A stretch of 64,000 nt of DNA. Source: Patescibacteria group bacterium (GTDB taxonomy: Bacteria > Patescibacteriota > Patescibacteriia > 2-01-FULL-39-33). Each line of letters begins with the position of its first letter. Within the stretch, counting starts at the first letter, position 1. Below, one piece after another: positions 1 to 49,000 of this stretch. The stretch covers positions 693 to 64,692 of the forward strand of contig JBAZQS010000002.1 in NCBI GenBank assembly GCA_041645075.1. The letters are read 5' to 3'. A program made the translations under genes and the position numbers. The notes under the pieces are model-generated. The model saw only the letters and a list, made by a program, of their open reading frames with translations. It was not told the DNA's origin and searched no databases.

Positions 1-884
1 TAATTCCTTTGGCCATAGAAAATCATGATTTGATGGATTATGATATTGTGATTTCCAGCGCTTCCTCTTTTGCCAAGGGCGTGATTACCAAGCCCAGTAG
101 CCGGCACATTTGTTATTGCCACACGCCCACCCGTTATTTGTGGACCAGTACCCATTCCTATGTCCAGGAATTAAAAGTTAACCCGTTAATAAAAATATTT
201 TTGCCGTTAACTTTAAGGAAATTGCGGCTGTGGGACCGGTTGGCGGCTGACCGCGTTGATTTTTTTATTGCCAATTCCGAAACCGTCCGGGAAAGAATCA
301 GAAAATATTATAATCGCGACAGCCGAGTTATTTATCCGCCGGTGGCAGTTGAACAATATTATATTTCGCCCCATCCCAAAAAGTTTTATTTGGCGGGCGG
401 CCGTTTAGTGTCTTATAAAATGATTGATTTAGCGGTTAGGGCGTTCGCGCGCTTAGGCATACCCTTAAAAATTTTTGGCGTTGGCCCGGAAATGAAAATG
501 TTAAAGAAAATAGCGGCTCAAGGCGACCCATTAAAAAGCAATATTGAATTTTTGGGCCGGATTTCTGATAAGCAAAAAAGATGGCTTTTTGCCAATTGTC
601 TTGCTTATATTAATCCGCAAGAAGAGGATTTCGGCATTACGGCCGTGGAGGCCATGGCTTCCGGCCGTCCCGTAATTGCTTATCGGGCCGGTGGCGCCAC
701 GGAAACGGTTCGCGAGGGGGAAACGGGCGAATTTTTTGATGAGCAAGTCTGGGAAGAAATTGCCGACAAAGTGATTCGCTTTCAGCCGGAAAAATACCAG
801 CCGGAAAAAATTAAAGAACATGCTAACCAATTTAGCGTAGAGAGGTTTAAAAAAAGAATAATGGAGGTGGTGGATAATTTTTAG
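1..884 (+). CDS. Glycosyltransferase family 1 (GT4-like), C-terminal part; 5' end probably lies outside the window
   Basis: The ORF from 9 translates with the GT1 C-terminal motif EDFGITAVEAMASGRPVIAYRAGGATETVREGETGEFF. No convincing RBS or start inside the window. Confidence 0.7.
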   Translation, partial: IPLAIENHDLMDYDIVISSASSFAKGVITKPSSRHICYCHTPTRYLWTSTHSYVQELKVNPLIKIFLPLTLRKLRLWDRLAADRVDFFIANSETVRERIRKYYNRDSRVIYPPVAVEQYYISPHPKKFYLAGGRLVSYKMIDLAVRAFARLGIPLKIFGVGPEMKMLKKIAAQGDPLKSNIEFLGRISDKQKRWLFANCLAYINPQEEDFGITAVEAMASGRPVIAYRAGGATETVREGETGEFFDEQVWEEIADKVIRFQPEKYQPEKIKEHANQFSVERFKKRIMEVVDNF

Positions 885-966
885 TTGTCATTGCGAGGGA
901 GCGCGAGCGACCGTGGCAATCCTATAAGATTGCTTCGTCGGCGATTACGCCTCCTCGCAATGACAA
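885..966. repeat. Palindromic intergenic repeat (MITE-like), family A: TTGTCATTGCGAGG ... CCTCGCAATGACAA
   Basis: The 14-bp termini are perfect inverted repeats. An internal gattgcttcgtcggcg word is shared with a second copy at 50025-50134. Confidence 0.75.
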
Positions 967-970
967 TATT

Positions 971-2170
971 ATGAAAATCGGCATTGACATCCGTTGTCTG
1001 ATGAATAAAAATTATTCCGGCGTTTCTTATTACACTTTTAATTTATTAAAGGCGATTTTTGCGTTGGATAAAGAAAATCAATATTTGCTTTTTTATAATT
1101 CTTCCAAAAAAGTTGATTTGCCGGAATTTAATCAGCCAAACGTAAAATATGTCGGTTTTCACTGGCCGAATAAAATTTTCAATCTGGCCTTAAATTTTTT
1201 TAATGAGCCAAAAATTGACAAATTAATCGGCGGGGTGGATATTTTTTTTGCGCCCAACCTGCATTTTGTGGCTTGGTCGGAAAATTGTAAAAAAGTCATA
1301 GCGGTTCATGATTTGTCATTTTTGCGTTTTCCCGAGTTTTTTAATTTTAAAATGCGTTTATGGCATAAATTGATTTTGTGGAAAAATATTTTAGGCCAAG
1401 CCGATATGATTACGGCCGATTCAGAAAATACCAAGAATGATTTGATTGAATTGTTGAAAATACCGGAAGGTAAAATAAAAGTGGTTTATCTGGGTGTGAG
1501 CGAGGAGTTTAGGGTTTTGGCTAAAGACGATATTCGTTTAGAAAACGCGAGAAAAAAACATAATTTGCCGGAAAAGTTTATTTTATACTTGGGCACGCTG
1601 GAACCCAGAAAAAATATTGAGAGCATTGTTGAGGCATACAATTTATTTTCTCCCCCTTACGAAGGGGGGGATCAAAGAGGGGGTTATGATTTGGTGATTG
1701 CGGGCGGAGTTGGCTGGAAAGCAAAAAATATTTTTAAATTGGCAAAAAAAAATTCAAGAATAAAATTTATCGGCTACGTTGATGACCGCCCGGCTTTATA
1801 TAACTTAGCCAGCTTGTTTGTTTACCCGTCTTATTATGAGGGCTTTGGCTTGCCGTTACTAGAGGCCATGGCCTGTGGCTGTCCGGTTATCGCCGGCGCT
1901 AATTCTTCGCAGGGCGAGGTAGTGGGCGACGCGGGACTGCTGGTGGACCCGTATAATATTAATGAAATTAAAAAAGCCATGGAAATTTTATTGGCTAATA
2001 ATGAATTAAGAGATGATTTTATGAAAAGTGGATTGGAACGAGCAAAAGAATTCACCTGGCAAAAAACCGCGGAAAAAGTTTTGGAAAGTTTTATAAAATT
2101 TTTTCCCCCTTCCAAGGGGGTCGCCAGCGGGCGAGGGGACGGGCAAAAAAATTTATTTAAGTATTATTAA
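971..2170 (+). CDS. Glycosyltransferase family 1 (GT4)
   Basis: MKIGIDIR start typical of GT4; EGFGLPLLEAMACGCPVIA motif. Two short GC-rich palindromic in-frame segments at 1650-1688 and 2102-2143. Confidence 0.85.
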   Translation: MKIGIDIRCLMNKNYSGVSYYTFNLLKAIFALDKENQYLLFYNSSKKVDLPEFNQPNVKYVGFHWPNKIFNLALNFFNEPKIDKLIGGVDIFFAPNLHFVAWSENCKKVIAVHDLSFLRFPEFFNFKMRLWHKLILWKNILGQADMITADSENTKNDLIELLKIPEGKIKVVYLGVSEEFRVLAKDDIRLENARKKHNLPEKFILYLGTLEPRKNIESIVEAYNLFSPPYEGGDQRGGYDLVIAGGVGWKAKNIFKLAKKNSRIKFIGYVDDRPALYNLASLFVYPSYYEGFGLPLLEAMACGCPVIAGANSSQGEVVGDAGLLVDPYNINEIKKAMEILLANNELRDDFMKSGLERAKEFTWQKTAEKVLESFIKFFPPSKGVASGRGDGQKNLFKYY

Positions 2171-2206
2171 TCTATCGTGTTATAATTAAAAAACAAAATA
2201 GGTATT

Positions 2207-2965
2207 ATGAATAATGAAAAGTTAGAACAAAAAAATCAGGAATCGGAAATTTCTCTTTCAGAAGAATGGATTGCTTTATCGGAAGCAATGTATGATAGTG
2301 GGTTTATATCTGAATTATCCGATTTTTTTAAAGAAAATAATATCAAAACAATTCTTGAATGTGGTTGTGGTGGTGGACATATATTAAAAGGATTGGGTGA
2401 AAATGGTTTTGTTGGGACGGGTATTGATGCTGATGAGATAATGATTAAGCACGCACAAGATAAAAATAAAAATTTAGGTTTTAAATTTTTAAAATTAAAC
2501 TGGTTTGATATTGATAAATTAGAAGGAACTTTCGATGCCGTCATGTGCAGGGGGAACAGCCTGTCTAATTTTAATTGGGGAGGAAAAATAAATATTGATT
2601 ATCAAAAAGTAGAAGAACTAATTATAAATACTTTGCAAAAAATGTTTTCTAAGGTTAATCCAGGCGGGCTACTGTATGTAGATACGGAATCAAATGAAAA
2701 CATTTTAAAAGGGAATAGAAATATTGAAATAAAAAAAGAAAATCTACACCTAAGAGGAAGAGTTGAGTATGATTTTAAAAACAAAATTAGAAAAATTTTT
2801 GGAGAAGGATTGGTTAATGGTAAAAGATTTAAAGGAGGACAGAATTCTTATTTATTTCAACCCGTAGAAATTGAAAACTTTTTAAAGCAATTGAAACCTG
2901 AAAAAATCTGGACTCCAAAATTCAAGCATGAAATTAATTATCAAGTATTTTGCGCAAAAAAATAG
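2207..2965 (+). CDS. Class I SAM-dependent methyltransferase
   Basis: ILECGCGGGHILKGL glycine-rich motif I. Very AT-rich gene. Confidence 0.7.
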   Translation: MNNEKLEQKNQESEISLSEEWIALSEAMYDSGFISELSDFFKENNIKTILECGCGGGHILKGLGENGFVGTGIDADEIMIKHAQDKNKNLGFKFLKLNWFDIDKLEGTFDAVMCRGNSLSNFNWGGKINIDYQKVEELIINTLQKMFSKVNPGGLLYVDTESNENILKGNRNIEIKKENLHLRGRVEYDFKNKIRKIFGEGLVNGKRFKGGQNSYLFQPVEIENFLKQLKPEKIWTPKFKHEINYQVFCAKK

Positions 2966-2997
2966 GGTTTGCGTCAGCAAACCCTACACAGAGCATT

Positions 2998-3651
2998 TTA
3001 TATCTCCTTATACTGAATTACCACGAATTGACCACATGGCTCATCTTCTGGAAAGAAACCAGGAATGATCCAAAGAGTTTTGGCTCCGTTTTTTATATAG
3101 AAGCCGAGAACTGGGTCTTTGGATAACATTAATTCATCCGGCAATGGCGCTTTCCCCTCTAAGTGAGCTGTTATCGCATCATGTATTTCTTGATTTTTTA
3201 AAACCCTTTCCTGCTGAAATTCTGAGCTTCCGTTAAAAGATGGACATCTGCTGTCTCCTACAATGTAGGACATTCCATCTTCTTTTGCTTTTTTGATAGC
3301 TCCCTCAATTAGATATTTTGCCGCGTAACCGTTTCTATGTTCTGGCACAATGCCTAAACTGTGAACAAAAGCAGTGTTTGGATTTTCATCATGTGGGACT
3401 TCAGCATACATTTTTAATGTTTTAGGAAAGTTTTCATAATCATTTGGTGAAAAATTGGCGTATCTTAGGGCTATTGTGCCAATCAATTTTTCACCAATAA
3501 AAGCGCCAAGAAATATGTGATTCATTTCCAAGCATATTCTGATGTTTTTTTCAGTAATTTGGATTGTTGGTATAAATGCTCTTTTTTCAACATCCATTAT
3601 TTGAGTAATATTTTCTATACTCAATTGGATTACAGAAATTAAACTTTTCAT
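2998..3651 (-). CDS. GNAT-family N-acetyltransferase (probable)
   Basis: HRNGYAAKYL resembles the acetyl-CoA-binding R-x-x-G-x-A motif. Start placed at MKSLIS (3651) after an AGGAGG-like RBS; the longer track ORF (to 3822) lacks an RBS. Confidence 0.5.
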   Translation of the reverse strand: MKSLISVIQLSIENITQIMDVEKRAFIPTIQITEKNIRICLEMNHIFLGAFIGEKLIGTIALRYANFSPNDYENFPKTLKMYAEVPHDENPNTAFVHSLGIVPEHRNGYAAKYLIEGAIKKAKEDGMSYIVGDSRCPSFNGSSEFQQERVLKNQEIHDAITAHLEGKAPLPDELMLSKDPVLGFYIKNGAKTLWIIPGFFPEDEPCGQFVVIQYKEI

Positions 3652-3756
3652 TTTTCCTCCTTTTTTCAATAAAATGGTAAAATTCAATATAATTTGATAG
3701 ATTGTTAATGGACTATTTTGCTTAATATATAATATTAATTTAATTTTGTCAATAGT

Positions 3757-4974
3757 ATGAAAATCGGCATAGACGCGCGGCTTTATGGGACTAAACACGG
3801 CGGTATTGGGCGGTATGCGCAAAAATTAATTGAGCATTTGGAAAAAATTGATTCAGAAAATCAGTATGTGGTTTTTTTGCAAAAAAATAATTTTAGCGAG
3901 TACCAGCCGCAGAATAAAAATTTTACTAAGGTTTTGGCGGATTTTCGCGCTTATGGCTGGCAAGAGCAGATTTTATTTCCCAAACTTCTAAATAAATATA
4001 ATTTTGACTTTGTCCATTTTACGCATTTTAACGCGCCAATTTTTTTTGGCGGAAAATTTATGGTCACGATTCACGACTTGATAATTTCTCATTATCCGGA
4101 TAGCCGAGCCACGACCTTAAATCCGTTTTTATATAAAATAAAATTAATTTTTTATAATATCGTGATAAATCACGCCGCCAAGAAAGCGGAAAAAATTATC
4201 GCGGTTTCCGAGTATACAAAAAACGATATTATTAAATTTTTAAAAGTCGTCCCCGAAAAAATCGCGGTCACTTATGAGGGTTATGATCCGCCCAAGGATA
4301 TTGGCCATGATTGCCAAAATATAATTCAGCAATTTGGCATTAACGGCGAATATATTTTATATGTGGGTTCGGCCTATCCGCACAAGAATTTGGAAAGATT
4401 AATTTTGGCTTTTGAAAAGATAATTGAAGGATTACCCCACCCTAACCCTCCCCTTATAAAGGGGAGGGGGGAATCCTTATTTTCCTCCCCCTTCATAAGG
4501 GGGAGGTTAGGAGGGGGTAAATTGAATGACTTAAAATTAGTCCTTGTCGGCAGTAAAAATTATTTTTACGAGCGCTTAGAAAAAGAAATAAAAAAATTGA
4601 ATCTACAAAACGAAGTAATTCTCACCGGCTATTGCGATGACAATCAATTGGCCTGTCTGTATAAGAATGCCAAGGCCTATGTTTTCCCAAGTTTGATTGA
4701 GGGTTTTGGTTTGCCGCCACTGGAAGCGCAAAGTTATGGCGTGCCCGTGGCCAGCTCAAACGCCACTTGCTTGCCGGAAGTTTTGGGCGACAGCGCGTTT
4801 TATTTTGACCCCGAAAATATAAATGATATGGCGGAAAAAATATCGCGAATAATTAATGATGAAAATTTAAGAAACGATTTAATTAATAAGGGCCTTGAAA
4901 ACTTAAAAAAATATAGCTGGGAAAATTGCGCCCAGAAAACACTGGAGATTTATAATTTGACATTTATTAAATGA
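3757..4974 (+). CDS. Glycosyltransferase family 1 (GT4) carrying an in-frame palindromic insertion
   Basis: MKIGIDARLYG start; EGFGLPPLEAQSYGVPVASS motif. 4435-4519 is a nested GC-rich palindrome translated in frame. Confidence 0.85.
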   Translation: MKIGIDARLYGTKHGGIGRYAQKLIEHLEKIDSENQYVVFLQKNNFSEYQPQNKNFTKVLADFRAYGWQEQILFPKLLNKYNFDFVHFTHFNAPIFFGGKFMVTIHDLIISHYPDSRATTLNPFLYKIKLIFYNIVINHAAKKAEKIIAVSEYTKNDIIKFLKVVPEKIAVTYEGYDPPKDIGHDCQNIIQQFGINGEYILYVGSAYPHKNLERLILAFEKIIEGLPHPNPPLIKGRGESLFSSPFIRGRLGGGKLNDLKLVLVGSKNYFYERLEKEIKKLNLQNEVILTGYCDDNQLACLYKNAKAYVFPSLIEGFGLPPLEAQSYGVPVASSNATCLPEVLGDSAFYFDPENINDMAEKISRIINDENLRNDLINKGLENLKKYSWENCAQKTLEIYNLTFIK

Positions 4975-5066
4975 TGTAATAAAATACAAGTACCATAAGT
5001 CGCCGAAAGGGACTTATAAAAACCCGAAAGGGAAAACAAATTCCGAAAGGAAGAGGAGGATGTGTT

Positions 5067-5825
5067 ATGTTGAACATTGACAAGGGTGATTTGGGCCTGA
5101 TAAGAGATTTATTGGGCGCGAAGGGGAGCGCCGAAAGCGATTTTAGGGCTAGAGCGCTTTTATTGTTTAATGATGCAGAAGCATTAAATTCGCACCTTTC
5201 ATCGTGGGGTTGTTATTCCGTCCCCATCGCAATCAGAGCCAATATTATTATGGCGAAAACGGCGAATATATTGCCCAATAAATCGGATTATTACACCTGG
5301 TTAAATCTGCTTTCTAAAATTTTTGATTCGCCAATTCGTCAAAATTCGGCAAACCCAGAGATGATTAGCGGTCTGATTGTCGGGATATTCCAATCCCTTA
5401 AAGCTGGCCGTCGTTTTTTCCAGGGTGAACACGAGGATGAGTTTAGAAGATTTGGATTCTCAATTGTGGCCAAAATGGTTTTGGGGGAATATGGCAAGAG
5501 TTCTAGTTGGTCTCGTTTTGATAAATTGGAAGAAGTAGAAAATGCGGCCAAAGAATGGGTAAGGCAGACCGACTATCTATATAACGTGTCTGCCTTAAAA
5601 CGATTTTCTCCTTTGTTTGAGGAAATTTATCGTAAATTGCCGGGCACCTATTCTGAAATTACGAAGCGCATTTTAAATGGGCTGGTTTACGGATTGTTCG
5701 GCGCCCTGGGCACAGTTTATATGATAAAGCTCCTTTCTTTTATTCCGCTTCTGGAAAATCGTACTTTGTCCGTATCTCGAATATGCGGAATGCTCGACGC
5801 ATTGTCCGACCAAGACAAAGCGTAA
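5067..5825 (+). CDS. Hypothetical protein
   Basis: Long ORF with an AGGAGG RBS at 5055-5062. No recognisable motif. Confidence 0.55.
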   Translation: MLNIDKGDLGLIRDLLGAKGSAESDFRARALLLFNDAEALNSHLSSWGCYSVPIAIRANIIMAKTANILPNKSDYYTWLNLLSKIFDSPIRQNSANPEMISGLIVGIFQSLKAGRRFFQGEHEDEFRRFGFSIVAKMVLGEYGKSSSWSRFDKLEEVENAAKEWVRQTDYLYNVSALKRFSPLFEEIYRKLPGTYSEITKRILNGLVYGLFGALGTVYMIKLLSFIPLLENRTLSVSRICGMLDALSDQDKA

Positions 5826-6008
5826 AAAATAATCAACTCAAAATAATCTCCGTTTCGGCGGAGATTTTTAATTTTTAAAATTTTATCCCCAGTTAGTTGT
5901 TTTTAAATACGGTTTTATGTTATAATAAATTTATAAATTTTAGAAATTCCAGTCCAAAGCATATAATTTGGTCTGGCATGAATTGTATTTGTAATTGTCT
6001 AACCAAAG

Positions 6009-8834
6009 GTGACAAAAAACAGCAAAAAAACAGCCGGTTTGCCATCGCGACCTCCAAAAATCGTCAAGAAAAAGCCGGTTAAAAAGTCGGTCAGCAAAAG
6101 CAGCAAAAAAAGAGCCAGCCCATTTAAAAAACCCCGCGTGAGCCGGCCGCTTTTATCTATTGGCCGACTGGAAACCTCATCAAAAAAAATTGCCATTGCG
6201 AAAAAGGCGGATAAATCAGTCAATATTAATATTGTTGTTCATCCTCTTGATGTCTACCAATCACCCCATTTATTGGATTTATCCCAATCAAGGTTTATTG
6301 AAAAAGTCAGGCCGAGTTGGGACGGGGGCGATTTTTCTTATAATGATTTGCCGGGCGGCGCTCTTTTAGCCAAATTATATATTTTTGAATTATTATCTTT
6401 TGATAAAAGTGAAATTATCAATGGCTTTAAAAAATTGTTTAATGGTTTTGTTTCCGCGGTCAAAAAGCCGTTTCAAAGAGTTAATTTTTCCGCAAAATTG
6501 CCCTTGGTAAATAATGATAATCTTTTGGCGTCCAGGTTATCTTTTTGGCAGGAAATTACGTTTATAAATTTAATGGCCGCCGTTTTTTCCGGATTGTTAG
6601 GCCTCGGCCAAAATATTCGCAATTTGGCGGTTTATTTAAAACAAAATCAGCCGAAAACCGATGATGAAATTGATTTTGGCTTAAAGCCATCGGGTGCCGA
6701 TGATTTAGGTCGGGATTATTCCTTGGCCGGTGAGATTTTGGCGATGGTTCGCAAGCCGGTTTTAAATATTGAGAGCAAGCCGGTTTTAAATCAGAAAAAA
6801 TTTTTACCATCTTTATCTTTTAAAATATTTGCCTGGCCGGAATTGAAATCAGTGTCTTTTAGGGGCGTTATGGCTTTCGTCATAATCGCCCTATTGATTG
6901 TTTTGCCCATTAAGGCCATTAATTACTGGCAGGCGGTCAATGCCGCCAAGGGCCGGGTTTTGGGAGAAGCCGAACAGGCCATGCAAAATTTATCCTTGGC
7001 CCAAAATCAATTGGCTAATTTTAATTTTAATCAGTCGGAAAATTATTTTTCTTCGGCCGGCCGGTATTTTGTCTCGGCCCAGAGCCAATTAAATGAGATT
7101 AAGTCATTCCTCACGGTTTTGGCGGAGAGCGCGCCGGTAAGCAATTCATTCCGCAGCGGGAAAAATTTATTGTCTTTAGGCGAACACCTAGCCAACGCGG
7201 GCGAATATTTATTAGAGGGCATCAACGGCCTGGCGGGCGGAGAAGAACTAAAATTAACGGCTCAAATTAAAAACTTTAAAACCCAAAACAATCTTGCCTT
7301 GAACGAACTGAAATTAGCGCAGGACAATTTGAAAAAAGTGAATCTTAATCATTTGCCGGCCGAAAACCGGGATAAGTTTATTTCCTTGCGGAAACAGCTG
7401 CCTATTTTTATGGTTAGCTTGGAAAAGATTGGCGGCCTGACTGATTTCGCGGTTAAGTTTTTGGGGGACAATGACTTGAAAAGATATTTAATGGTTTTTC
7501 AGAATGACAATGAACTGCGGGCCACGGGCGGATTTATGGGCAGTTTTGCTTTGGTTGATTTAGAATCAGGCAAAATAAAAGACATAAAAATACCGGCGGG
7601 CGGCACTTATGACGTCAGGGCCGGTTTTAATGAATTAATCCGGCCGCCCCAGCCCATGCAGCTTTTAACGCCGCGTTGGGAATTTCAGGATGCCAATTGG
7701 TGGCCGGATTGGCCGACTTCGGCCAAAAGCATCACTTGGTTTTATCAGAAAAGCCAAGGGCCGACCATTGACGGCGTTATTGCCATTAATTCCGATTGGC
7801 TGGAGAGCTTATTGGGAATTGTGGGGCCGATAGATTTGCCCGAATATAAAAAGACGATTACGGCGGCTAATTTTGAAGACGAAGTGCAAAAAGAAGTGGA
7901 AATAACCCGTCAAAACGACAAACAGCCCAAGAAAATTTTGGCTGATTTGGCGCCAAAGCTATTGGATAAAATTTTTAATATTCAGCCGGAAAACATTTTA
8001 AATTTAATATCGGCCATTAATAGCGGTTTAAACCAAAAAGATATTTTAATTTATTTATCCGATCCGCAACTGGAAAATTTTGTCGCCCAAAATAGCTGGG
8101 ACGGCCGGTTGAAAAACACTGAATCCGATTATTTGAACGTCGTGGCCACGAACATTGGCGGCGGCAAAACCGACCGGGCCGTCAAGCAAAAAATTTATCA
8201 CCGGGCGGAAATTTTAGCCGACGGCTCGGTCATTGATCGCTTATTAATTTCCCGCTCTCATTTCGGCCCCATTGATGAAAATTTTACCACCATGGCCAAC
8301 CGCAGTTATTTGCGCCTTTATGTGCCCGAGGGCAGCCAGCTCATAAAAGCGGCTGGCTTTGTTCAGCCGCTTGCCGGCGAATTCAGAGCGCCGGAATATT
8401 ATTTAAAATTTGATGAGCGCTTGGCCGCCGAAAATAAAGCCAAGACAGATCCCGAATCAAAGACCAAAATATACAATGAAAACGGGAAGACCGTCTTTGC
8501 CAATTGGCTAAGCATTAATCCCGGCGAGTCAAAAGATGTGCTTTTAGTTTATAAATTGCCGTTTAAAATAAATCTGGCGCCGAAGGAAAATAATAACGGC
8601 TTGATCAATAAAATAAAAGCCGCTTTTTTGCCCAGCGAACTGTCTGCCTCCTACGGGCTTTTGATTCAGAAACAGCCGGGCAGCGATGAAGACGAAATTG
8701 TCAGTGAGGTGGCATACCCCGATGGCTTTAAGCCGTCATCAACCTATCCCCAGGCCTCGGCCAGTGATTTAAATAAGATTATTTTCCGGGGCAAGCTAAC
8801 AACCGACCAGTATTATTTTTCCGATTTTAAATAA
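6009..8834 (+). CDS. DUF4012-like membrane-anchored protein with a Lys-rich N-terminal tail
   Basis: Basic KKxxKK N-terminus, a TM segment, and the segment FQNDNELRATGGFMGSFALVDLESGKIKDI, which matches DUF4012 proteins as I recall them. Confidence 0.6.
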   Translation: MTKNSKKTAGLPSRPPKIVKKKPVKKSVSKSSKKRASPFKKPRVSRPLLSIGRLETSSKKIAIAKKADKSVNINIVVHPLDVYQSPHLLDLSQSRFIEKVRPSWDGGDFSYNDLPGGALLAKLYIFELLSFDKSEIINGFKKLFNGFVSAVKKPFQRVNFSAKLPLVNNDNLLASRLSFWQEITFINLMAAVFSGLLGLGQNIRNLAVYLKQNQPKTDDEIDFGLKPSGADDLGRDYSLAGEILAMVRKPVLNIESKPVLNQKKFLPSLSFKIFAWPELKSVSFRGVMAFVIIALLIVLPIKAINYWQAVNAAKGRVLGEAEQAMQNLSLAQNQLANFNFNQSENYFSSAGRYFVSAQSQLNEIKSFLTVLAESAPVSNSFRSGKNLLSLGEHLANAGEYLLEGINGLAGGEELKLTAQIKNFKTQNNLALNELKLAQDNLKKVNLNHLPAENRDKFISLRKQLPIFMVSLEKIGGLTDFAVKFLGDNDLKRYLMVFQNDNELRATGGFMGSFALVDLESGKIKDIKIPAGGTYDVRAGFNELIRPPQPMQLLTPRWEFQDANWWPDWPTSAKSITWFYQKSQGPTIDGVIAINSDWLESLLGIVGPIDLPEYKKTITAANFEDEVQKEVEITRQNDKQPKKILADLAPKLLDKIFNIQPENILNLISAINSGLNQKDILIYLSDPQLENFVAQNSWDGRLKNTESDYLNVVATNIGGGKTDRAVKQKIYHRAEILADGSVIDRLLISRSHFGPIDENFTTMANRSYLRLYVPEGSQLIKAAGFVQPLAGEFRAPEYYLKFDERLAAENKAKTDPESKTKIYNENGKTVFANWLSINPGESKDVLLVYKLPFKINLAPKENNNGLINKIKAAFLPSELSASYGLLIQKQPGSDEDEIVSEVAYPDGFKPSSTYPQASASDLNKIIFRGKLTTDQYYFSDFK

Positions 8835-8857
8835 ACTAAATGATTTAAATTATATTT

Positions 8858-9721
8858 ATGAATCCAGAAAAATTTGAGCAAGAACATCTTTCTTTAGAAG
8901 AACAATTTAAAAATCCAGAGATGATAGAACTTGGTGGCAAAACCGTTGAAGTAATTGATATACACCCAGAGATATCAAAGACGGAGGTGCCCGTGGTTGT
9001 TGCTCCGGGATGGGCAGCAACTCCCGAAGTGTTCAAAGATAATATTTTAACGCTAGCTGAATTAGGACGAAGGACAATCTCTGTAAATTCTCCTCACGGA
9101 ATAGAGACCAGCGAGATTGAAGGTTTGCCTGAGGCTGAATTAAGAAAAGTGGCCGCTTTGATGGAAGCACTAAAAGAAAAAGACATCGATCAGATTGATG
9201 CCATAGGCCATTCTGAAGCTGGTATCTATTTAACTATTGCCGCAACCTTGTATCCGGATAAGTTTAGAAATCTTGTCCTTGTTGACCCGGGGGGAATGAT
9301 TGGAAAAGATAAACCAGAATATTTGGCTGCCAGATTTTCCCTGGATATATTAAGACAAACCATTAGAAGTCTAAGAGAACATGAAATTATCAAACCGGCA
9401 ATGAAAGCCTCTTTGGTGGCGGGACGGGCAGTGGGGGGTGCCCCAGCGCAGTCTTTAAGAGAAGTTGTTGCTATTTCTAATACTCAAATTCACGATCTTT
9501 TGCGTGGCTTAAGGGAAAAGGGTATTGGCATATCAATTATTCATGCGGTTGATGATAAAGCCTTTCCCATGGAGAGAGTCCAAAAAATCGCTAAAAAAGA
9601 CCAGCTTAATGGTTTTTATTCAGTCAAAGGGACCCATAATGAATTTTATTTACATCCTGAAAAATATACTCGACTAGCCGAACACGCACTGGCTGCTTTA
9701 GAATCTAGGAAAACTAAATAA
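8858..9721 (+). CDS. Alpha/beta hydrolase fold protein
   Basis: G-H-S-E-A-G nucleophile elbow (GxSxG). Confidence 0.7.
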   Translation: MNPEKFEQEHLSLEEQFKNPEMIELGGKTVEVIDIHPEISKTEVPVVVAPGWAATPEVFKDNILTLAELGRRTISVNSPHGIETSEIEGLPEAELRKVAALMEALKEKDIDQIDAIGHSEAGIYLTIAATLYPDKFRNLVLVDPGGMIGKDKPEYLAARFSLDILRQTIRSLREHEIIKPAMKASLVAGRAVGGAPAQSLREVVAISNTQIHDLLRGLREKGIGISIIHAVDDKAFPMERVQKIAKKDQLNGFYSVKGTHNEFYLHPEKYTRLAEHALAALESRKTK

Positions 9722-9801
9722 AAAAAGAGACATTTTTAGATTCAAAATTATTTCAAAATTTAACATTTAAAATTGAAAATTAACAGCTTATTAATTTTTA
9801 T

Positions 9802-11910: not shown

Positions 11911-11912
11911 TT

Positions 11913-13112
11913 TTGAATATGTTCCAACTCTTGAAACAGTCAAAAAAATCATCAGCGCGGCTGGGCAAGATTAAAACTATCCACGGCGAAATACAGACGC
12001 CGTTTTTTATGCCTGACGCGACCCGGGGTTTTGTCAAGTCAATTGACAATAAAGAGTTGGCGGCGGTAGGCACAGAAGCGATGGTAATAAATACGCTTCA
12101 TTTATATTTACAGCCGGGCACCAAAGTCATCAAAAAAGCCGGCCTGTCTGCCGGAACTTCAGCGCAGGCAGGCGGCGTTCATAAATTTATGAATTGGCCC
12201 GGCTTATTGCTTTCCGACAGCGGCGGTTTTCAGGTTTATTCTTTAATCCACCAAAGCCAGGAGCTCGGTAAGATTTACGATGATAAGGTTATTTTTAAAT
12301 CCTCATTAGACGGTTCAAAACATATTTTAACGCCGGAAAAATCAATTCAAATTCAATTTGATTTGGGCGCGGATATGATGGTTTGCCTTGATGATTGTCC
12401 GCCCAATGATTTTCACAGAAAGGACTTAGAAAAATCAGTCGCCAGAACAATTGTCTGGGCCAAGCGCTGCCGCCGGGAATTTGACAAGCAAATTAAAAAA
12501 AGAAAATTAACCGGTTTATCAAAACCGTTATTATTTAGCGTGATTCAGGGCGGCGCCGAACTGGACTTGAGAAAAAAATGCGCTGAAGCGCTGATTAAAA
12601 TCGGATTTGACGGCTATGGTTTTGGCGCCAGGCCGGTAGATAAAAAAGGCGGATTTTTAGGCGGGGTCTTAAAATTTACCGCTGATTTAATTCCCAAAAA
12701 TGCTTTGCGATTTGCCCTTGGCATCGGCCGGCCCGAAGATATTTTAAGATGCGTTCAAATGGGCTGGGATATGTTTGATTGCGTGATTCCGACCAGAGAA
12801 GCGAGGCATGGACGATTATATGTCTGGAAAAATTCAAAGCTTGTCCCCGACTCCGATCGGGGATTCCAAACTTGTCCTCGCCGAGGCGGGTATTCCAAAT
12901 TTTATTGTACTATAAATATTTCCAATTCAAAATATAAGTCGGATTTTACGCCCATAAACGGCATGAATCTAAAAAATTATTCTAAAGCGTATTTACACCA
13001 CCTCTTTAAAGTTGGCGACCCGTTGGCTATGCGATTGGCCACTTTAAATAACTTAAATTTCTATTCAACATTAATGTCTAATATTAGGCGGGAAATTAAT
13101 GAAGTTTGCTAA
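11913..13112 (+). CDS. tgt: Queuine tRNA-ribosyltransferase (tRNA-guanine transglycosylase), atypical
   Basis: TIHGEIQTPFFMPDATRGF and LLSDSGGFQVYSL core motifs; the C-terminal YSKAYLHHL block is present but the CxCxxC zinc motif is absent. Confidence 0.8.
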   Translation: MNMFQLLKQSKKSSARLGKIKTIHGEIQTPFFMPDATRGFVKSIDNKELAAVGTEAMVINTLHLYLQPGTKVIKKAGLSAGTSAQAGGVHKFMNWPGLLLSDSGGFQVYSLIHQSQELGKIYDDKVIFKSSLDGSKHILTPEKSIQIQFDLGADMMVCLDDCPPNDFHRKDLEKSVARTIVWAKRCRREFDKQIKKRKLTGLSKPLLFSVIQGGAELDLRKKCAEALIKIGFDGYGFGARPVDKKGGFLGGVLKFTADLIPKNALRFALGIGRPEDILRCVQMGWDMFDCVIPTREARHGRLYVWKNSKLVPDSDRGFQTCPRRGGYSKFYCTINISNSKYKSDFTPINGMNLKNYSKAYLHHLFKVGDPLAMRLATLNNLNFYSTLMSNIRREINEVC

Positions 13113-18200: not shown

Positions 18201-18361
18201 AGATATTTCATTCTGGCTAATTTTAATTCTAATGTATTTTAACTAATATATTTTATTTTCGCAAATGGAAGTTTTAAACAGATTATTCACGGATTGTTAG
18301 CCCCCTAAATGTTGCTAAAAATAAATTTATTTGTTATAATATTTTTTGATACTAATAATAA

Positions 18362-18521
18362 GCGCCTATAGCTCAGTCTGGGTCGAGACCGCAGGTCGAG
18401 ACGGGTTGGAAGCGAGGTTAGGAGCGAAGCGACGACGCCGAGAGTCGGACAATCTGCTGGTAGCAGATTGGACGCCAACCCAGGAAGAGCAACAGTATTG
18501 TTTTAAAAATTAATTAAGTCA
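18362..18521 (+). other. tRNA-Lys 5'-fragment duplication interrupted by a 102-nt GC-rich hairpin insert
   Basis: 18362-18381 is identical to the first 20 nt of tRNA-Lys. 18485-18494 (agagcaacag) again matches the tRNA. 18382-18483 is GC-rich with stems such as caatctgct-ggta-agcagattg. Confidence 0.45.
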
Positions 18522-18522
18522 C

Positions 18523-18599
18523 GCGCCTATAGCTCAGTCTGGTAGAGCAACAGCCTTTTAAGCTGATGGTCGCAGGTTCAAATCCTGCTGGGCGCACCA
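18523..18599 (+). tRNA. tRNA-Lys (anticodon TTT), CCA encoded
   Basis: Cloverleaf by hand: acceptor GCGCCTA/TGGGCGC, anticodon loop CTTTTAA, T-loop TTCAAAT. Confidence 0.85.
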
Positions 18600-18648
18600 A
18601 TAAGGAACTTTCTGCCGTTAAGGCGATACTTTTTGTTTTTAATTTTGA

Positions 18649-18684
18649 CATTTGACATTAAAAAATATTAGCGGTATATTTAAA
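18649..18684 (+). promoter_or_regulatory. Sigma70-like promoter candidate (TTGACA-17-TATATT) upstream of ORF 18843
   Basis: ttgacattaaaaaatattagcggtatatt. Confidence 0.4.
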
Positions 18685-18842
18685 GCAGAAACACTGATTT
18701 GAAAACAAAAAAACGAATATAATCAGGGAGTCAGTTCCTTGAAAATTTGTAAATTTAGCCAAAAAGTGGCTAAATTTTTGTTTAAATAAAGCAGAAATAG
18801 GGGTTTGTGAATAACTTTAAAAGAAAGGAGGATTGACAAAAA

Positions 18843-19472: not shown

Positions 19473-19605
19473 AAATCAGATTAACAATGAAAGGAGGATT
19501 TTGAGGGCGAAATAAACCCACCCGCCTGCCCGCTGGCAAGGCAAGTCCGGCTCTCAACTCGTTTGAGAGAAAACCATTCCAATTTTTGTAAACCGGAGGT
19601 ATGTC

Positions 19606-20547: not shown

Positions 20548-20754
20548 TTCAATCTCGCCAATAAGCCGTAGCTTACAGCCAAACAATGGTTACAACAGGC
20601 AGACATCTCTGCCTCAAGTAAATACCGCATGGGCAGCCCCATGTCTCGTTTGACCTAAGCTCCCTTAGAGCGAATGCTTTTAGGAGTTTTTTCCCACGGA
20701 CCAGATTACCTCATCTGTTCAATAAGAAAAAACTCCTTTTTTTATTTTGAGATT

Positions 20755-37669: not shown

Positions 37670-37715
37670 CAAATAACAAAATTAATTATATTTAATTAAC
37701 TCAAATTAACTTAAT

Positions 37716-46090: not shown

Positions 46091-49000
46091 ATGAGCAACA
46101 ACTTGGAAAATTTAAATAGCGAACAGCAACAAGCGGTTATCCACGACGATGGACCGCTTTTAATCGTGGCTGGCGCCGGCACGGGCAAAACCACGGTGAT
46201 TACCCAACGCATTTCATATTTGATTAATGAAAAAAAATGCCGGCCCGAGGAAATTTTGGCTTTAACTTTCACGGATAAGGCCGCCGGAGAAATGGAGGAA
46301 AGGGTGGATCGCCTCTTGCCTTACGGCTATGTGGATTTATGGATTTCCACCTTTCATGCTTTTGCCGAACGCATTTTGAAAGACCATGGTTTGGAAATCG
46401 GCCTGCCCAATGATTTTAAACTACTCTCCGCGACCCAGCAATGGCTGATTGTCCGCCAGAATTTAGATAAATTCAATCTTGACTATTATCGTCCGCTTGG
46501 CAATCCCACTAAATTTATTCACGCTTTAATAAAACATTTTTCCCGCGCCAAAGATGAAAATATCAGCGCCCAAGATTATCTTAAATATGTGGAGGATTTA
46601 AAAATGAATTCTGACTCGGCCGAATACGTCAGAACCATTATTGACGAAGAAACCGCTAACCAACTTTCTAAAAAAGAATTAAAAGAGGTTTTGGCGCATG
46701 AAATTTTAAAACAGGAAGAAGTGGCTAATGCCTATCATATTTATCAGCAGTTGTTATTGGATAATAATGCTTTGGATTTCGGTGATTTGATAAATTATTG
46801 CCTCAAATTATTCAGCGAAAGAAAAAATCTGCTCGCCAAATACCGCAGTCAATTCAAATATATTTTGGTAGACGAATTTCAGGATGTTAATTATGCCCAA
46901 TATGAATTAGTAAAAATCATCGGAGCTCCTAAAAATAATATTACCGTTGTTGGAGATGATGATCAATCAATCTATCGGTTCCGCGGGGCATCCATTGCCA
47001 ATATTTTACAGTTCAAAGATGATTACCCGAATCTTAAAGAAATATTTTTGACCGCCAATTACCGCAGCCGGCAGAATATTCTGGACCTGTCTTATAAATT
47101 CATTCAGCAGAATAATCCTTATCGGCTGGAAGTGAAATTAGCCAAAGATAAAAAATTATGCAAAGTATTAAGAGCCGAACAAGAGGGAATAGCCGAGATA
47201 TCGCATCTGCACGGCCACGCTTTGGCCGACGAAGTTAAAATTACGGTGGAAAAAATAATTGAACTGTATAATAAAAGTAAAAACACAAATTGGTCTGATT
47301 TTGCGATTTTGGTGCGTGCCAATGCCAGCGCCAACAATTTTATTTACGCGCTTGAGCGGGCCGATATCCCGTATAATTTTGTGGCTTCCCGGGGGCTTTA
47401 CGCCAAAAACGTGGTCTTGGATATTTTGGCGTATTTAAAATTATTGGATAATTATCATGAGAGTTCGGCCATGTATCGGATATTATCTTTGCCGATTTGG
47501 GGCTTTGACGCCCGCGACATTATCAATCTTAATTATTGGTCCAAGCGCAAGGGCTGGTCTGTTTATGAATCTATGAAGCAAACCGCAATTTTAAATAATA
47601 TTTCTCATGAAGGCAAAAAACGTTTTGAGCAAATTTTAGGCCTGATTGACCGCCACGGCCAGATGATCCGAGAAAACAAAAATACCACGGAAATTATCCA
47701 GGCCTTTCTGATTGATACGGGCTATCTGAAAAATTTAACCGCCATAGACAATCAAATTCATAGAGAGCAATTAAATTATCTAAATCAATTTTATAAAAAA
47801 GTTCAGGAATTTGAATTGGAAACCGACGAAAAAGGCGTAAGAAATTTTTTGGCCTTAATCGGACTGGAGCTTGAATCGGGCGAAGAGGGAACATTGAAAC
47901 AAAACCTGGAAGAGGAGGGGCCGGATGCGGTCAAAATCATGACCGTGCACGCGGCCAAGGGACTGGAATTTAAATATGTTTTTATTGTTAACTTGGTAGA
48001 TAAAAAATTTCCTTCCGTGAGCCAGTCCGAGCCCATTGAGTTGCCGGAAAAATTAATTAAGGAGATTACGGCCGAGGGCGATATCCATTTGCAGGAGGAA
48101 AGGCGATTATTTTATGTGGGTATGACCAGAGCCAAGGAAGGCCTGTATTTTACTTCGGCCGATGATTACGGCGGGAACAGAAAGAAAAAACTATCCAGAT
48201 TTTTAATTGAGCTGTCAGAGGCGGGTTTGGAATTATCTTCCTCCGAATCCCCCCTCCCCTTTACAAGGGGAGGGTTGGGGAGGGGTCTTGTTGGTGAAGA
48301 TAAATTAGACACGCCAAATAAAAAGAAAGAGATAATTGAAAATTTACTCCCGGCTACTTTTTCTTTCAGCCAGATCAGGGCTTTTGAAAGTTGCCCCTAT
48401 CAATATCGTTTTGCTTATATTTTAAAAGTCCCGACCAAGGGCAACCCCCAATTTTCTTTCGGCAAGACCATCCACTCAACATTGCAGAAATATTTCCAAT
48501 TGGCTAATTTGCGAAAAATGAGCCGGCAGAAGAATTTATTCGGCGATGAAACGGCGTCAAAAATTCCCACCGGCGAAGAATTATTAAAAATTTATGAGAC
48601 GTCGTTTATTGACGATTGGTATCCGGACCGCAAAACCAAAGAGCAATATTTTGAAAAAGGGAAAAAAGCGCTTAAAGAGTTTTATGAAAAACACAAAGAT
48701 AATTTGCCCGAGGTTAAATTTTTGGAATACCCGTTTAATTTGAAAATTAAAAATGACGCGGTTTATGCTTTTTTTGGCGTGATTGACCGGGTAGATAAGA
48801 CAAATGAGGGGATAAGGATTGTTGATTACAAAACCGGCCGAGTAAAAAATAAATTAGAGCCGGAAGATAAGGAACAGCTTTTAATCTATCAATTAGCCGC
48901 CCAGGAAGTGATGAAAGAAAAGGTTAAAGAATTAATTTTTTATTATATTGAAGAAAATAAAGAAATGGCATTTTTGGGGACGGACAAAGAGTTGGATAAG

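What the first reader, a model, noticed from the sequence alone, without database searches (positions are those of the whole stretch)
4435..4519. In-frame 85-bp nested GC-rich palindrome inside a glycosyltransferase gene (RPE-like behaviour)
CCCCACCCTAACC-CTCCCCTTATAAAGGGGAGGGG-...-CCTCCCCCTTCATAAGGGGGAGG-TTAGGAGGGGG forms two hairpins inside a longer inverted repeat, yet it is translated in frame (GLPHPNPPLIKGRGESLFSSPFIRGRLGGG) without breaking the GT fold motifs that follow. Related C/G-tract palindromes occur in frame at 1650-1688 and 2102-2143 (another GT), 12845-12895 (tgt) and 48248-48287 (the helicase-nuclease). In-frame insertion of palindromic repeats into protein genes is best known from Rickettsia palindromic elements. 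Here it looks like an analogous family.
Basis: partly seen in the sequence, partly recalled or inferred. Interest (0 to 1): 0.65.

Follow-up and report, generated by a model that had tools for sequence, protein, structure and literature searches.

The report
Mobile double-hairpin repeat inside glycosyltransferase gene
An 89-base GC-rich double-hairpin repeat, belonging to a family found in many bacterial phyla, sits in frame in a glycosyltransferase gene of a Patescibacteria (CPR) bacterium and adds a floppy 30-residue surface loop; this is a new example of "selfish" palindromic DNA living inside working genes, as first described in Rickettsia.

Summary
Window 4432-4520 is an 89-nt nested palindrome: two perfect 10-bp C-tract/G-tract hairpins inside 33-nt outer arms. 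It is read in frame in a GT4 glycosyltransferase gene of a Patescibacteria genome. It is an insertion. None of 119 other homologues has this peptide, including the 79% and 75% identical ones, and DNA of two close relatives shows a clean 90-nt gap. The gene stays under purifying selection (dN/dS 0.15-0.18). AlphaFold puts the insert in a disordered loop of the C-terminal Rossmann domain.

It belongs to a repeat family. A profile built only from non-CPR copies finds it full length (E=6e-20). The same profile finds single units in the helicase-nuclease gene (48248-48287) and in a second GT (1650-1682). The tgt site is a different hairpin family.

Unexpectedly, the same ~90-nt double hairpin occurs in Cyanobacteria, Proteobacteria, Nitrospirota and other phyla. 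There it is mostly intergenic and occasionally in frame (PKS, RNR, PheT, QueA).

No target-site duplication, transposase or RAYT was found, so how it moves is unresolved. It behaves like Rickettsia palindromic elements and intragenic REPs but belongs to neither: a new member of a known kind.

The parts
3757..4974 (+). Host gene: GT4 (GT-B fold) glycosyltransferase, 405 aa
   Evidence: Pfam Glycos_transf_1 and Glyco_transf_4 match; the Glycos_transf_1 match restarts only at residue 256, after the insert. The AF2 model has mean pLDDT 91.8. Foldseek finds MshA, BshA and GlgM. dN/dS against insert-free orthologues is 0.15-0.17.
4432..4520 (.). Whole double-hairpin element (doublet of two inverted units), read in frame as codons about 226-255
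   Evidence: Inverted repeat I1 and fold. Relatives L002 and L003 have a 90-nt gap here. nhmmer with a profile of 17 non-CPR doublets gives E=6.4e-20 over the full length. It aligns without gaps to cyanobacterial doublets.
4435..4447 (+). C-rich 'head' of the left unit (CCCCACCCTAACC); its complement together with the stem reads GGGGAGGGTTAGGGTGGGG
   Evidence: Read from the sequence. The same head precedes the hairpin, or its complement follows it, in 100 of 128 copies from other genomes.
4446..4468 (.). Hairpin 1: CCCTCCCCTT-ATA-AAGGGGAGGG
   Evidence: Perfect 10-bp stem. The first 37 nt of the element (4432-4468) are identical to a cyanobacterial copy, L027.
4469..4483 (+). Spacer between the two hairpins (14-15 nt, T-rich)
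   Evidence: The 14-15 nt spacing is the commonest one in doublets from other phyla.
4484..4506 (.). Hairpin 2: CCTCCCCCTT-CAT-AAGGGGGAGG
   Evidence: Perfect 10-bp stem. Its loop is the reverse complement of loop 1 with one mismatch, as is the rule in the family.
4507..4517 (+). G-rich 'tail' of the right unit (TTAGGAGGGGG)
   Evidence: The same left/right asymmetry is seen in the L119 MAG, Cellvibrio L080, Aeromonas L131 and Photobacterium L130.
48248..48287 (-). Single left-type unit, in frame (SPLPFTRGGLGRGL), in the hypervariable linker of the UvrD-helicase/PD-(D/E)XK nuclease gene 46091-49117
   Evidence: E=3e-9. It lies between Pfam UvrD_C (ends at residue 690) and PDDEXK_1 (starts at 756). 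The peptide is absent from orthologues; the 91% identical P0124 has other hairpin peptides there.
1650..1682 (+). Single right-type unit, in frame (SPPYEGGDQRGG), in a second GT4 gene (971-2170), in the same alpha1-to-beta2 loop as in the first GT
   Evidence: E=2.5e-5. The site is empty in L003 (92% aa identity) and expanded by a further 141 nt of nested hairpins in L002 (94%).
2102..2143 (+). Degenerate hairpin pair at the 3' end of the second GT gene; it removes the ancestral stop and adds a 23-aa tail
   Evidence: The family match is weak (E=0.023).
12833..12897 (+). In-frame insert of a different hairpin family (two tandem TTGTCC-hairpin-ATTCCAAA units) in tgt (11913-13112)
   Evidence: Query residues 306-333 have no counterpart in any solved TGT. 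The related assembly L001 carries an unrelated hairpin repeat at the same spot.

Best explanation
Window 4432-4520 is a copy of a small, non-autonomous, dispersed palindromic repeat. It is a 'double hairpin' made of two inverted ~40-nt units. Each unit is a C-tract/G-tract hairpin (CCYTCCCCTT-NNN-AAGGGGRAGG) with a C-rich head or G-rich tail. Shown: the copy was added to the glycosyltransferase gene after the lineage split from its nearest sequenced relatives. It landed in the codons for the loop between the first helix and second strand of the C-terminal Rossmann domain. It persists because the added length is a multiple of three, its only stop-free frame is in phase, and the encoded Pro/Gly/Arg-rich 30 residues form a disordered surface loop that the GT-B fold tolerates. 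The gene remains under purifying selection. Shown: the same kind of insert recurs in that same loop in a paralogous GT of this window and, as an independent event, in an orthologue. It also occurs in the linker of a helicase-nuclease. Inferred: this pattern reflects a survivorship filter. In a gene-dense genome the element lands anywhere, and only in-frame copies in tolerant loops are kept. Inferred, with low confidence (about 0.3): copies are made in trans through the hairpins as single-stranded DNA. That is the mechanism of REP/REPIN elements with RAYT and of IS200/IS605. It would fit the absence of a target-site duplication and the TTAC...GTAA ends. No enzyme was identified. For the protein the insert is most likely neutral baggage.
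For: Insertion: none of 119 other homologues has the peptide. L002 and L003 show a 90-nt gap. Family membership: a profile built from 17 non-CPR doublets finds the element full length at E=6.4e-20, the helicase unit at 3e-9 and the GT2 unit at 2.5e-5. The alignment to those doublets has no gaps, identity is 66-76%, and a 37-nt stretch is identical to L027. Doublet nature: the helicase copy equals the reverse-complemented left half. Hairpin spacing of 14-15 nt and reverse-complementary loops are family rules (16 of 32 exact and 25 of 32 within one mismatch, against 3.2 for shuffled partners). Dispersal: copies sit next to unrelated housekeeping genes (215 Pfam families among 144 neighbours, none with more than 3 members). 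They occur in many phyla, including cultured isolates such as Nostoc, Aeromonas caviae and Photobacterium. Recent turnover: the GT2 site is empty, single or expanded among genomes 92-94% identical in protein. Tolerance: AF2 mean pLDDT is 91.8, but 44-67 with no secondary structure over residues 225-255. dN/dS is 0.15-0.18 with or without the insert. One open frame in three per strand, and it is the one used. In-frame copies also exist in QueA, PheT, class II RNR, an HMGL-like protein and a PKS of other organisms.
Against: No target-site duplication can be reconciled with the reading frame. A TA duplication would add 85 nt and the flanking 10-nt direct repeat would add 98 nt, while the observed gain is 90 nt. 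No transposase or RAYT was found in the window or beside copies. The near-identity of sequence and of left/right asymmetry across phyla is unusual for selfish REP-type repeats, which are normally species-specific. It could mean the sequence is kept for a function. Only 64 kb of this genome was available, so copy number and the coding versus intergenic ratio for the whole genome are unknown. Three hits in the same GT loop could also mean target preference rather than a survivorship filter.
Confidence: 0.8

Rival explanations
1. The double hairpin is kept for a function of the nucleic acid itself. It could be a protein-binding site, an mRNA-stabilising, pausing or terminator-like hairpin, or a hairpin/G-quadruplex switch (the G strand reads GGGGAGGGTTAGGGTGGGG). 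Under this view the copies in genes are used, not merely tolerated.
For: Sequence, spacing and left/right asymmetry are conserved from CPR to Cyanobacteria and Gammaproteobacteria, in genomes of 37-69% GC. Loops vary while stems stay fixed, and partner loops co-vary. The hairpin is very stable. The Aeromonas copy lies about 10 nt after a TAA triplet, a possible gene end.
Against: Presence/absence differs between genomes 92-94% identical in protein, with no compensating change. Copies sit in unrelated genes and next to unrelated genes. No Rfam family matches. Stems do not show compensatory changes; they are simply invariant, which neither supports nor tests a structure. G-quadruplex formation was not tested.
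Confidence: 0.12
2. It is a classical DDE-transposase MITE, for example IS630/Tc1-like with a TA duplication. The ends would be TA-CCCC...GGGG-TA, and a full-length IS elsewhere in the genome or community would mobilise it.
For: It has 33-nt terminal inverted repeats and a size in the MITE range. Nearly all cyanobacterial copies and the window copy are flanked T-TA...TA-A. In cyanobacteria the doublet often lies inside a ~150-nt element with its own inverted ends GGTGTACACACAAGT.
Against: A TA-duplicating insertion of the 83-nt core adds 85 nt and would break the frame, while the gain is 90 nt. Alphaproteobacterial copies end GATCCCC rather than TACCCC. Single units, direct tandems (L004, L009, Photobacterium) and nested copies are common. 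No DDE transposase is enriched near copies.
Confidence: 0.15
3. The segment is native. It would be a lineage-specific loop extension that arose locally, by slippage or by templated hairpin formation through strand switching. Its resemblance to other sequences would be convergence of simple C/G tracts.
For: The loop is variable in length among orthologues. C/G-tract hairpins are simple sequences. Several unrelated GC-rich hairpin indels occur in this clade.
Against: A full-length 86-position match at E=6e-20 to a profile built from other phyla, with the same head, spacing, tail and asymmetry, is not simple-sequence convergence. A second copy in the same window differs at 3 of 39 positions.
Confidence: 0.04
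4. It is an assembly or binning artefact: foreign (for example cyanobacterial) repeat DNA joined into a CPR contig.
For: A 37-nt stretch is identical to a cyanobacterial copy. A related contig (L001) changes identity exactly at another hairpin site.
Against: The element is flanked within the same ORF by GT sequence on both sides and keeps the frame. An independent record (ENA k141_3137, L001) is 99.93% identical over window 1-12832, with no difference printed anywhere near the element. Sister copies in this window have diverged, which is not what contaminating reads would give.
Confidence: 0.02

Closest known systems
Rickettsia palindromic elements (RPE; Ogata et al. 2000, 2002, as summarised in PMC10969869 and PMC3733652)
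   Same: Both are palindromic repeats inserted in frame into unrelated, still functional protein genes. Both are absent from orthologues, encode a peptide compatible with the host fold, and occur in small, gene-dense genomes.
   Different: RPEs are about 100-150 bp, are confined to Rickettsia and fall into ten families of their own. This element is 89 nt, is built of two ~40-nt C/G-tract hairpin units, sits in a Patescibacteria genome, and has relatives in many phyla that are mostly intergenic. No sequence comparison with RPEs could be made here.
REP elements, their inverted doublets (REPINs/BIMEs) mobilised by RAYT tyrosine transposases, and REPs found inside ORFs (PMC3116915; Di Nocera et al. 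2013, PMC3733652)
   Same: Both have 20-40-nt GC-rich imperfect palindromes, commonly paired in inverted orientation 10-100 nt apart to form a larger hairpin. Both occur in many dispersed copies without a target-site duplication, and copies are occasionally found entirely within ORFs, including DNA repair and helicase genes.
   Different: The GTAG or CGTC tag is absent (TTAC/GTAA here). No RAYT was found. The REP reported next to the Nostoc punctiforme RAYT is a different sequence. REP families are usually species- or genus-specific, whereas this one keeps its sequence across phyla.
Bacterial MITEs (Correia/NEMIS, ERIC, Nezha of Anabaena/Nostoc; PMC3184786, PMC10969869)
   Same: Both are small, non-coding, have terminal inverted repeats and stable folds, and can fuse in frame with host ORFs.
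   Different: No target-site duplication and no parent IS were found. The size is below the 130-170 bp given for Nezha. In cyanobacteria the doublet looks like a module inside a longer element rather than the whole MITE.
Small dispersed repeats (SDR) of Nostoc (Elhai et al. 2008, Genome Res 18:1484; known to me from memory and from citations in PMC5861425, text not readable here)
   Same: Both are very small (21-27 nt) palindromic repeats abundant in Nostocaceae, nested in other repeats, and apparently mobile by an unknown mechanism. The 23-nt hairpin core of this family and its abundance in Nostoc fit that description.
   Different: Identity could not be checked because the paper is not held. 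[quoted passage not shown]
GC clusters of yeast mitochondrial genomes (from my own knowledge)
   Same: Both are short GC-rich palindromic insertions in an AT-rich genome, including in-frame copies in a protein gene (var1), spread by an unknown mechanism.
   Different: They occur in an organelle of eukaryotes, have unrelated sequences, and there is no evidence of common origin. This is an analogy only.

Membership tests
Rickettsia palindromic elements (RPE) | Palindromic repeat able to form a stable hairpin | tested here: met
   33-nt arms and two 10-bp hairpins; -61.4 kcal/mol, z=-4.9.
Rickettsia palindromic elements (RPE) | Inserted in frame in functional genes and absent from orthologues | tested here: met
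   dN/dS 0.15-0.18.
Rickettsia palindromic elements (RPE) | Insert lies where the protein fold tolerates it (surface segment) | tested here: met
   In the AF2 model, residues 225-255 have pLDDT 44-67 and no secondary structure, between H212-224 and E260-264.
Rickettsia palindromic elements (RPE) | About 100-150 bp, in Rickettsia | tested here: not met
   The element is 89 nt. The host is a Patescibacteria group MAG.
Rickettsia palindromic elements (RPE) | Sequence belongs to one of the RPE-1 to RPE-10 families | not tested
   No RPE consensus was available in the tools and the papers are not held.
REP / REPIN (RAYT-associated) | 20-40-nt imperfect palindromic unit, often paired in inverted orientation into a larger hairpin | tested here: met
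   About 40-nt units. The window doublet equals a unit plus an inverted unit. Partner loops are complementary across the family.
REP / REPIN (RAYT-associated) | Unpaired GTAG (or CGTC) tag at one end of the unit | tested here: not met
   The window ends are TTAC...GTAA. Only Nitrospirales variants read CTAC.../...GTAG, and there the tag is at the opposite end relative to E. coli REP.
REP / REPIN (RAYT-associated) | A RAYT (Y1/HUH) gene in the genome, flanked by the repeat | tested here: inconclusive
   phmmer with remembered IS608 TnpA and E. coli RAYT sequences found nothing in the window. The one Y1-like gene beside a copy (L110) is flanked by a different GTAG repeat. No Y1 family appears among 144 neighbouring ORFs. 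The rest of the genome could not be searched.
REP / REPIN (RAYT-associated) | Predominantly extragenic | tested here: inconclusive
   Outside this window, at most 16 of 128 copies lie in long ORFs. In the window, four hairpins (three sites) are inside ORFs, one is at an ORF end and one doubtful one is intergenic.
MITE | Small (about 70-300 bp), no coding capacity, terminal inverted repeats | tested here: met
   89 nt with 33-nt arms 85% complementary.
MITE | Target-site duplication | tested here: not met
   No duplication model is compatible with the 90-nt in-frame gain or with the empty sites of L002 and L003. The GT2 site shows a 9-nt stretch replaced by 33 nt.
MITE | Parent IS with the same ends | not testable with these tools
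   This needs whole genomes.
Nostoc small dispersed repeats (SDR) | Sequence identity with SDR1-8 | not testable with these tools
   Elhai et al. 2008 is not held and no held paper contains the literal sequence.
GT4 glycosyltransferase (host gene) | GT-B fold with Glyco_transf_4 N-domain and Glycos_transf_1 C-domain | tested here: met
   Pfam, AF2, Foldseek to MshA, BshA, GlgM, WaaG and PimA.

The most novel reading that the evidence does not exclude
One ~90-nt double-hairpin element keeps its sequence, its 14-15-nt spacing and its left/right asymmetry (CCCCACCC-TAA-CCCTCCCC versus GGGGGAGG-TTA-GGAGGGGG) across CPR/Patescibacteria, Cyanobacteria, Gamma- and Alphaproteobacteria, Nitrospirota, Bacteroidota and others. 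That would imply an unrecognised pan-bacterial agent: either a very broad-host mobilising enzyme or a conserved host factor or function that reads this hairpin/G-rich motif. In gene-dense CPR genomes, this and similar GC-rich hairpins would be a main source of in-frame length variation in proteins.
Probability: 0.3. Interest if true: 0.8.

Novelty: new member of a known kind. Interest (0 to 1): 0.55.

Why it matters
In-frame palindromic "selfish DNA" is best documented in Rickettsia and a few REP-rich species. This case shows the same behaviour in Candidate Phyla Radiation bacteria. There, comparison with close relatives suggests that GC-rich hairpin inserts in multiples of three are a common way for proteins to change length.

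There are practical consequences. Such inserts split Pfam domain hits and inflate protein lengths. They coincide with points where related contigs diverge. Over intergenic copies they spawn many spurious small ORFs in databases.

The cross-phylum conservation of one element is the unexpected part. If it is real mobility, it points to an unknown mobilisation route for very small hairpin elements. It also offers many natural filled and empty sites in culturable hosts (Nostoc, Aeromonas, Photobacterium) where the mechanism could be tested.

Tried and rejected
1. Target-site duplication. The flanking direct repeat AATTGAAGGA/AATTGAATGA and a TA duplication were both tested against the empty sites of L002 and L003 and against frame arithmetic. 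They would add 98 and 85 nt, while the observed gain is 90 nt. Both were rejected.

2. RAYT or IS200 association. phmmer with remembered IS608 TnpA and E. coli RAYT sequences was run against all six-frame ORFs. Only two hits appeared, neither linked to the element. The queries came from memory, so a negative result is weak.

3. Pfam census of 144 ORFs next to copies. No transposase or any other family was enriched.

4. Rfam. Only sub-threshold generic miRNA-hairpin matches were found. A whole-window gathering search gave four tRNAs.

5. Phage collection: no match.

7. A search with the inserted peptide failed. The query was too short, and an artificial 58-aa query shared no words, which cost the last word-index search. 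The profile search of representatives found mostly orphan mini-ORFs.

8. A search for an empty-site homologue of the Nostoc PKS copy in plasmids found none close enough.

9. Literature. No held paper contains the literal sequence. Elhai 2008, Wolk 2010 and Ogata 2002 are not held. One search for SDR4-6 returned only unrelated 'SDR' papers.

10. The idea that the N. punctiforme RAYT-associated REP is this family was rejected. That REP is GTTGGGTTTCGTTCCTCAACCCAAC.
Full report
**What is there.**
- The palindrome runs from 4432 to 4520 (TTACCCC...GGGGGTAA, 89 nt).
- Its outer arms are 33 nt long and 85% complementary.
- Inside are two hairpins, 4446-4468 (CCCTCCCCTT-ATA-AAGGGGAGGG) and 4484-4506 (CCTCCCCCTT-CAT-AAGGGGGAGG). 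Each has a perfect 10-bp stem.
- As a single strand it folds at -61.4 kcal/mol, 4.9 standard deviations better than dinucleotide shuffles.
- The 90-nt indel spanning it is about 55% G+C in a region of 38%.
- It lies in ORF 3757-4974 and is read through in frame.
- Only one of the three frames on each strand is free of stop codons, and that is the frame used.

**The host gene and organism.**
- The ORF is a GT4 (GT-B) glycosyltransferase. The Pfam Glycos_transf_1 match resumes only after the insert, at residue 256.
- The exact protein is on record as coming from a 'Patescibacteria group bacterium' MAG. The nearest homologues are Falkowbacteria and Buchananbacteria proteins.
- An independent record (ENA k141_3137, L001) is 99.93% identical over window 1-12832. 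None of the mismatches listed for that stretch lies near the element.

**It is an insertion.**
- Of the 120 best homologues, most are 365-380 aa while this protein is 405 aa.
- In the alignment, 118 have nothing at this position, including the 79% (P0002) and 75% (P0003) identical proteins.
- One, P0004 (67%), has a different C/G-tract insert (ANHPLPLLGKEREE...PPLTPPWKGGDGS) placed four residues further on.
- At the DNA level, relatives L002 and L003 are 86-88% identical and show one clean 90-nt gap.
- dN/dS is 0.15-0.18 for all three pairs, with or without the insert, so the gene is still under purifying selection.
- An AlphaFold2 model built with 60 homologues has mean pLDDT 91.8. Residues 225-255 score 44-67 and have no secondary structure. 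They lie between helix 212-224 and strand 260-264, which is the alpha1-to-beta2 loop of the C-terminal Rossmann domain.
- The model matches solved GT4 enzymes (MshA, BshA, GlgM, WaaG, PimA).

**It belongs to a repeat family in this window.**
- The helicase-nuclease site 48248-48287 is the reverse complement of the left half of the GT element, with 3 mismatches in 39 nt.
- The basic unit is therefore about 40 nt: a C-rich head, a hairpin and a short G run. The GT element is two such units in inverted orientation.
- A profile HMM built only from 17 doublets of other phyla finds four sites in the window:

| Window site | Part of profile matched | E-value |
|---|---|---|
| 4432-4517 (first GT) | full length | 6.4e-20 |
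| 48250-48286 (helicase-nuclease) | left unit | 3e-9 |
| 1640-1682 (second GT) | right unit | 2.5e-5 |
| 2097-2129 (second GT, 3' end) | weak match | 0.023 |

- The second GT (971-2170) carries its unit in the same structural loop as the first GT.
- Among genomes 92-94% identical in this protein the site has three states. It is empty in L003, holds one unit in the window, and holds that unit plus 141 nt of further nested hairpins in L002.
- The hairpin at 2102-2143 replaces the ancestral stop codon and adds a 23-aa tail.
- The helicase unit sits in the hypervariable linker between the UvrD_C and PD-(D/E)XK domains.
- The tgt site (12833-12897) is a real in-frame insert relative to every solved TGT. 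It belongs to a different hairpin family, and a related assembly carries yet another repeat there.

**The unexpected part: the family is not CPR-specific.**
- The hits came from Cyanobacteria (most of them), Nitrospirota, Alpha-, Gamma- and Deltaproteobacteria, Bacteroidota, Planctomycetota, Omnitrophota, Spirochaetota, Bacillota and three Patescibacteria.
- In 100 of 128 copies the hairpin carries the same head (ACCCCACCC-YNR-C) or its complementary tail.
- Full doublets from Nostoc, Pseudanabaena, Dolichospermum and a MAG labelled Gammaproteobacteria align with the window element without gaps at 66-76% identity. The first 37 nt are identical to L027.
- The asymmetry of the two halves recurs in Cellvibrio, in Aeromonas caviae, and in a tandem array in Photobacterium sp. 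GJ3. The left half reads CCCCACCC..CCCTCCCC and the right half GGGGGAGG..GGAGGGGG.
- Host G+C ranges from 37% to 69%.
- Within a doublet, the loop of one hairpin is the reverse complement of the other. This holds exactly in 16 of 32 and within one mismatch in 25 of 32, against a mean of 3.2 when partners are shuffled. Loops differ between genomes but tend to agree within a genome. This is what copying within a genome would give.
- Most copies outside CPR are intergenic: at most 16 of 128 lie in long ORFs.
- Their translations populate databases as orphan ORFs of 31-150 aa.
- Pfam-confirmed in-frame copies do exist, in QueA (Patescibacteria), the B5 domain of PheT, a class II ribonucleotide reductase and an HMGL-like enzyme. 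Another copy lies in frame in a CDS annotated as type I polyketide synthase on a Nostoc plasmid.

**How it most likely works.**
- Shown: this is an inserted member of a dispersed, non-coding palindromic repeat family. It is polymorphic among close relatives and sits where the protein tolerates it.
- Inferred: it is selfish or neutral for the protein. The recurrence in the same GT loop would then reflect what survives selection in a gene-dense genome. That recurrence covers this gene, its paralogue, and an independent event in orthologue P0004.
- The copying mechanism is not established. No target-site duplication fits. The TA model adds 85 nt and the 10-nt direct-repeat model adds 98 nt, while the gain is 90 nt. 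At the GT2 site, 9 nt are replaced by 33 nt.
- No transposase was found in the window or enriched among 144 ORFs next to copies.
- Four features fit hairpin-guided single-strand transposition of the REP/RAYT or IS200/IS605 type better than a DDE MITE. These are the lack of a duplication, the inverted-doublet architecture, the hairpins and the TTAC/GTAA ends. I give this only about 0.3.
- The strong cross-phylum conservation keeps a functional reading alive (a protein-binding hairpin, or a hairpin/G-quadruplex switch on the strand GGGGAGGGTTAGGGTGGGG). It was not tested.

**Comparison with what is known.**
- In-frame palindromic repeats are known from Rickettsia (RPE; summarised in PMC10969869).
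- REPs located entirely within ORFs, including repair and helicase genes, were reported by Di Nocera et al. (PMC3733652). Inverted REP doublets (REPINs) are described in PMC3116915.
- This element behaves like these but fails defining features of each. It has no GTAG/CGTC tag and no RAYT, so it is not a REP. It has no duplication and no parent IS, so it is not a MITE. Its length and host do not fit RPE.
- The REP next to the Nostoc punctiforme RAYT is a different sequence.
- The element may overlap the 'small dispersed repeats' of Nostoc (Elhai 2008), or be a module of cyanobacterial MITEs. In cyanobacteria it often sits inside a ~150-nt element ending GGTGTACACACAAGT. Those papers could not be read.
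- No held paper contains the literal sequence and no Rfam family matches.

**Wider pattern in this clade.** I aligned about 25 kb of the window with relatives L003 and L132 (same assembly) and L002. Most coding indels of 12 nt or more are GC-rich (54-73%) hairpin-forming blocks in multiples of three (24, 24, 24, 30, 90 and 141 nt), and they come from several sequence families. The finding is therefore one instance of a general habit of these genomes.

**Verdict.** I classify it as a new member of a known kind (palindromic repeats tolerated in frame in protein genes). It carries an unexplained and potentially important extra: the same double hairpin conserved across many bacterial phyla.

Noticed in passing
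window 12833-12897; L001 13062-13139: The independent contig L001 is 99.93% identical to the window up to 12832. From the tgt hairpin insert onward it is only 88% identical, and at that spot it carries a different repeat (CATTGCGAGGGGTCGCCAAACCCCGAAGCAATCCC...GATCGCCACGGTCGC...). Either a recombination breakpoint or an assembly chimera sits exactly on a hairpin repeat.
   Followed up: partly
window 12836-12897: The tgt insert consists of two tandem units of the form TTGTCC-hairpin-ATTCCAAA. This is a hairpin family distinct from the C/G-tract one. Its fold is not significantly better than shuffles (z=-1.5).
   Followed up: partly
L002 885-1025; L002 2430-2459; L003 7223-7340; L003 10135-10158; L132 8151-8174; L132 4740-4771: Close relatives carry other GC-rich hairpin inserts in GT, DUF4012, PheS and helicase genes. 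Most are multiples of three nucleotides (for example TGCCTGCCGAAGCTTTGGCGCAGGCGGGTA = LPAEALAQAG), but two of the listed blocks, in L003 and L132, are not. In-frame hairpin indels seem to be a general feature of this clade.
   Followed up: partly
L130 (Photobacterium sp. GJ3, NZ_CP073579.1) about 18340-20660: A tandem array of at least 16 doublets with a period of about 140 nt and conserved linker sequence, so the element is amplified here as a satellite. An IS200-like Y1 gene lies 15 kb away with no evident link.
   Followed up: partly
L032, L058, L065, L098, L102, L105, L113 (cyanobacteria): In cyanobacteria the doublet often lies inside a longer (~150 nt) element bounded by inverted ends GGTGTACACACAAGT...ACTTGTGTGTACACC. 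In Microcoleus, single units sit inside TATAGCAATCCTAAAT...ATTTAGGATTGCTATA palindromes. So repeats are nested in repeats.
   Followed up: partly
window 4435-4453 (minus strand), 48267-48285 (plus strand): The G-rich strand reads GGGGAGGGTTAGGGTGGGG or GGGGAGGGTTGGGGAGGGG: four G runs of at least 3 with loops of 1-3 nt, a canonical G-quadruplex motif overlapping one arm of the hairpin. In the helicase gene this is on the mRNA strand. Not tested.
   Followed up: no
window 37560-37580: The hairpin TCTCCCCCACAATGGGGGAGA is intergenic, 19 nt upstream of tRNA-Gln (37599-37670). It is not detected by the family profile, so it may be a terminator or a decayed unit.
   Followed up: partly
window 40580-40609: The strongest other GC-rich palindrome in the window (GGTGGCGGCAGCATCCGTGCTGCCGCCACC, 13-bp stem) lies inside the minus-strand ORF 40115-40897. 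It may be another in-frame palindrome.
   Followed up: no
L126 1770-3565: A distant GT orthologue (47% identity) spans 1796 nt for about 400 matched residues, suggesting an extra segment of about 600 nt (an intein or other large insert?).
   Followed up: no
L110 6800-7650 (Bacteroidetes MAG): A Y1/IS200-like gene is flanked on both sides by GTAG-type REPs (GTAGCCGCCGGTTTCAACCGGCGG and GCGCTCCTACGGAGC). This looks like a classical RAYT-REP arrangement, 240 nt from a copy of the C/G-tract hairpin but unrelated to it.
   Followed up: partly
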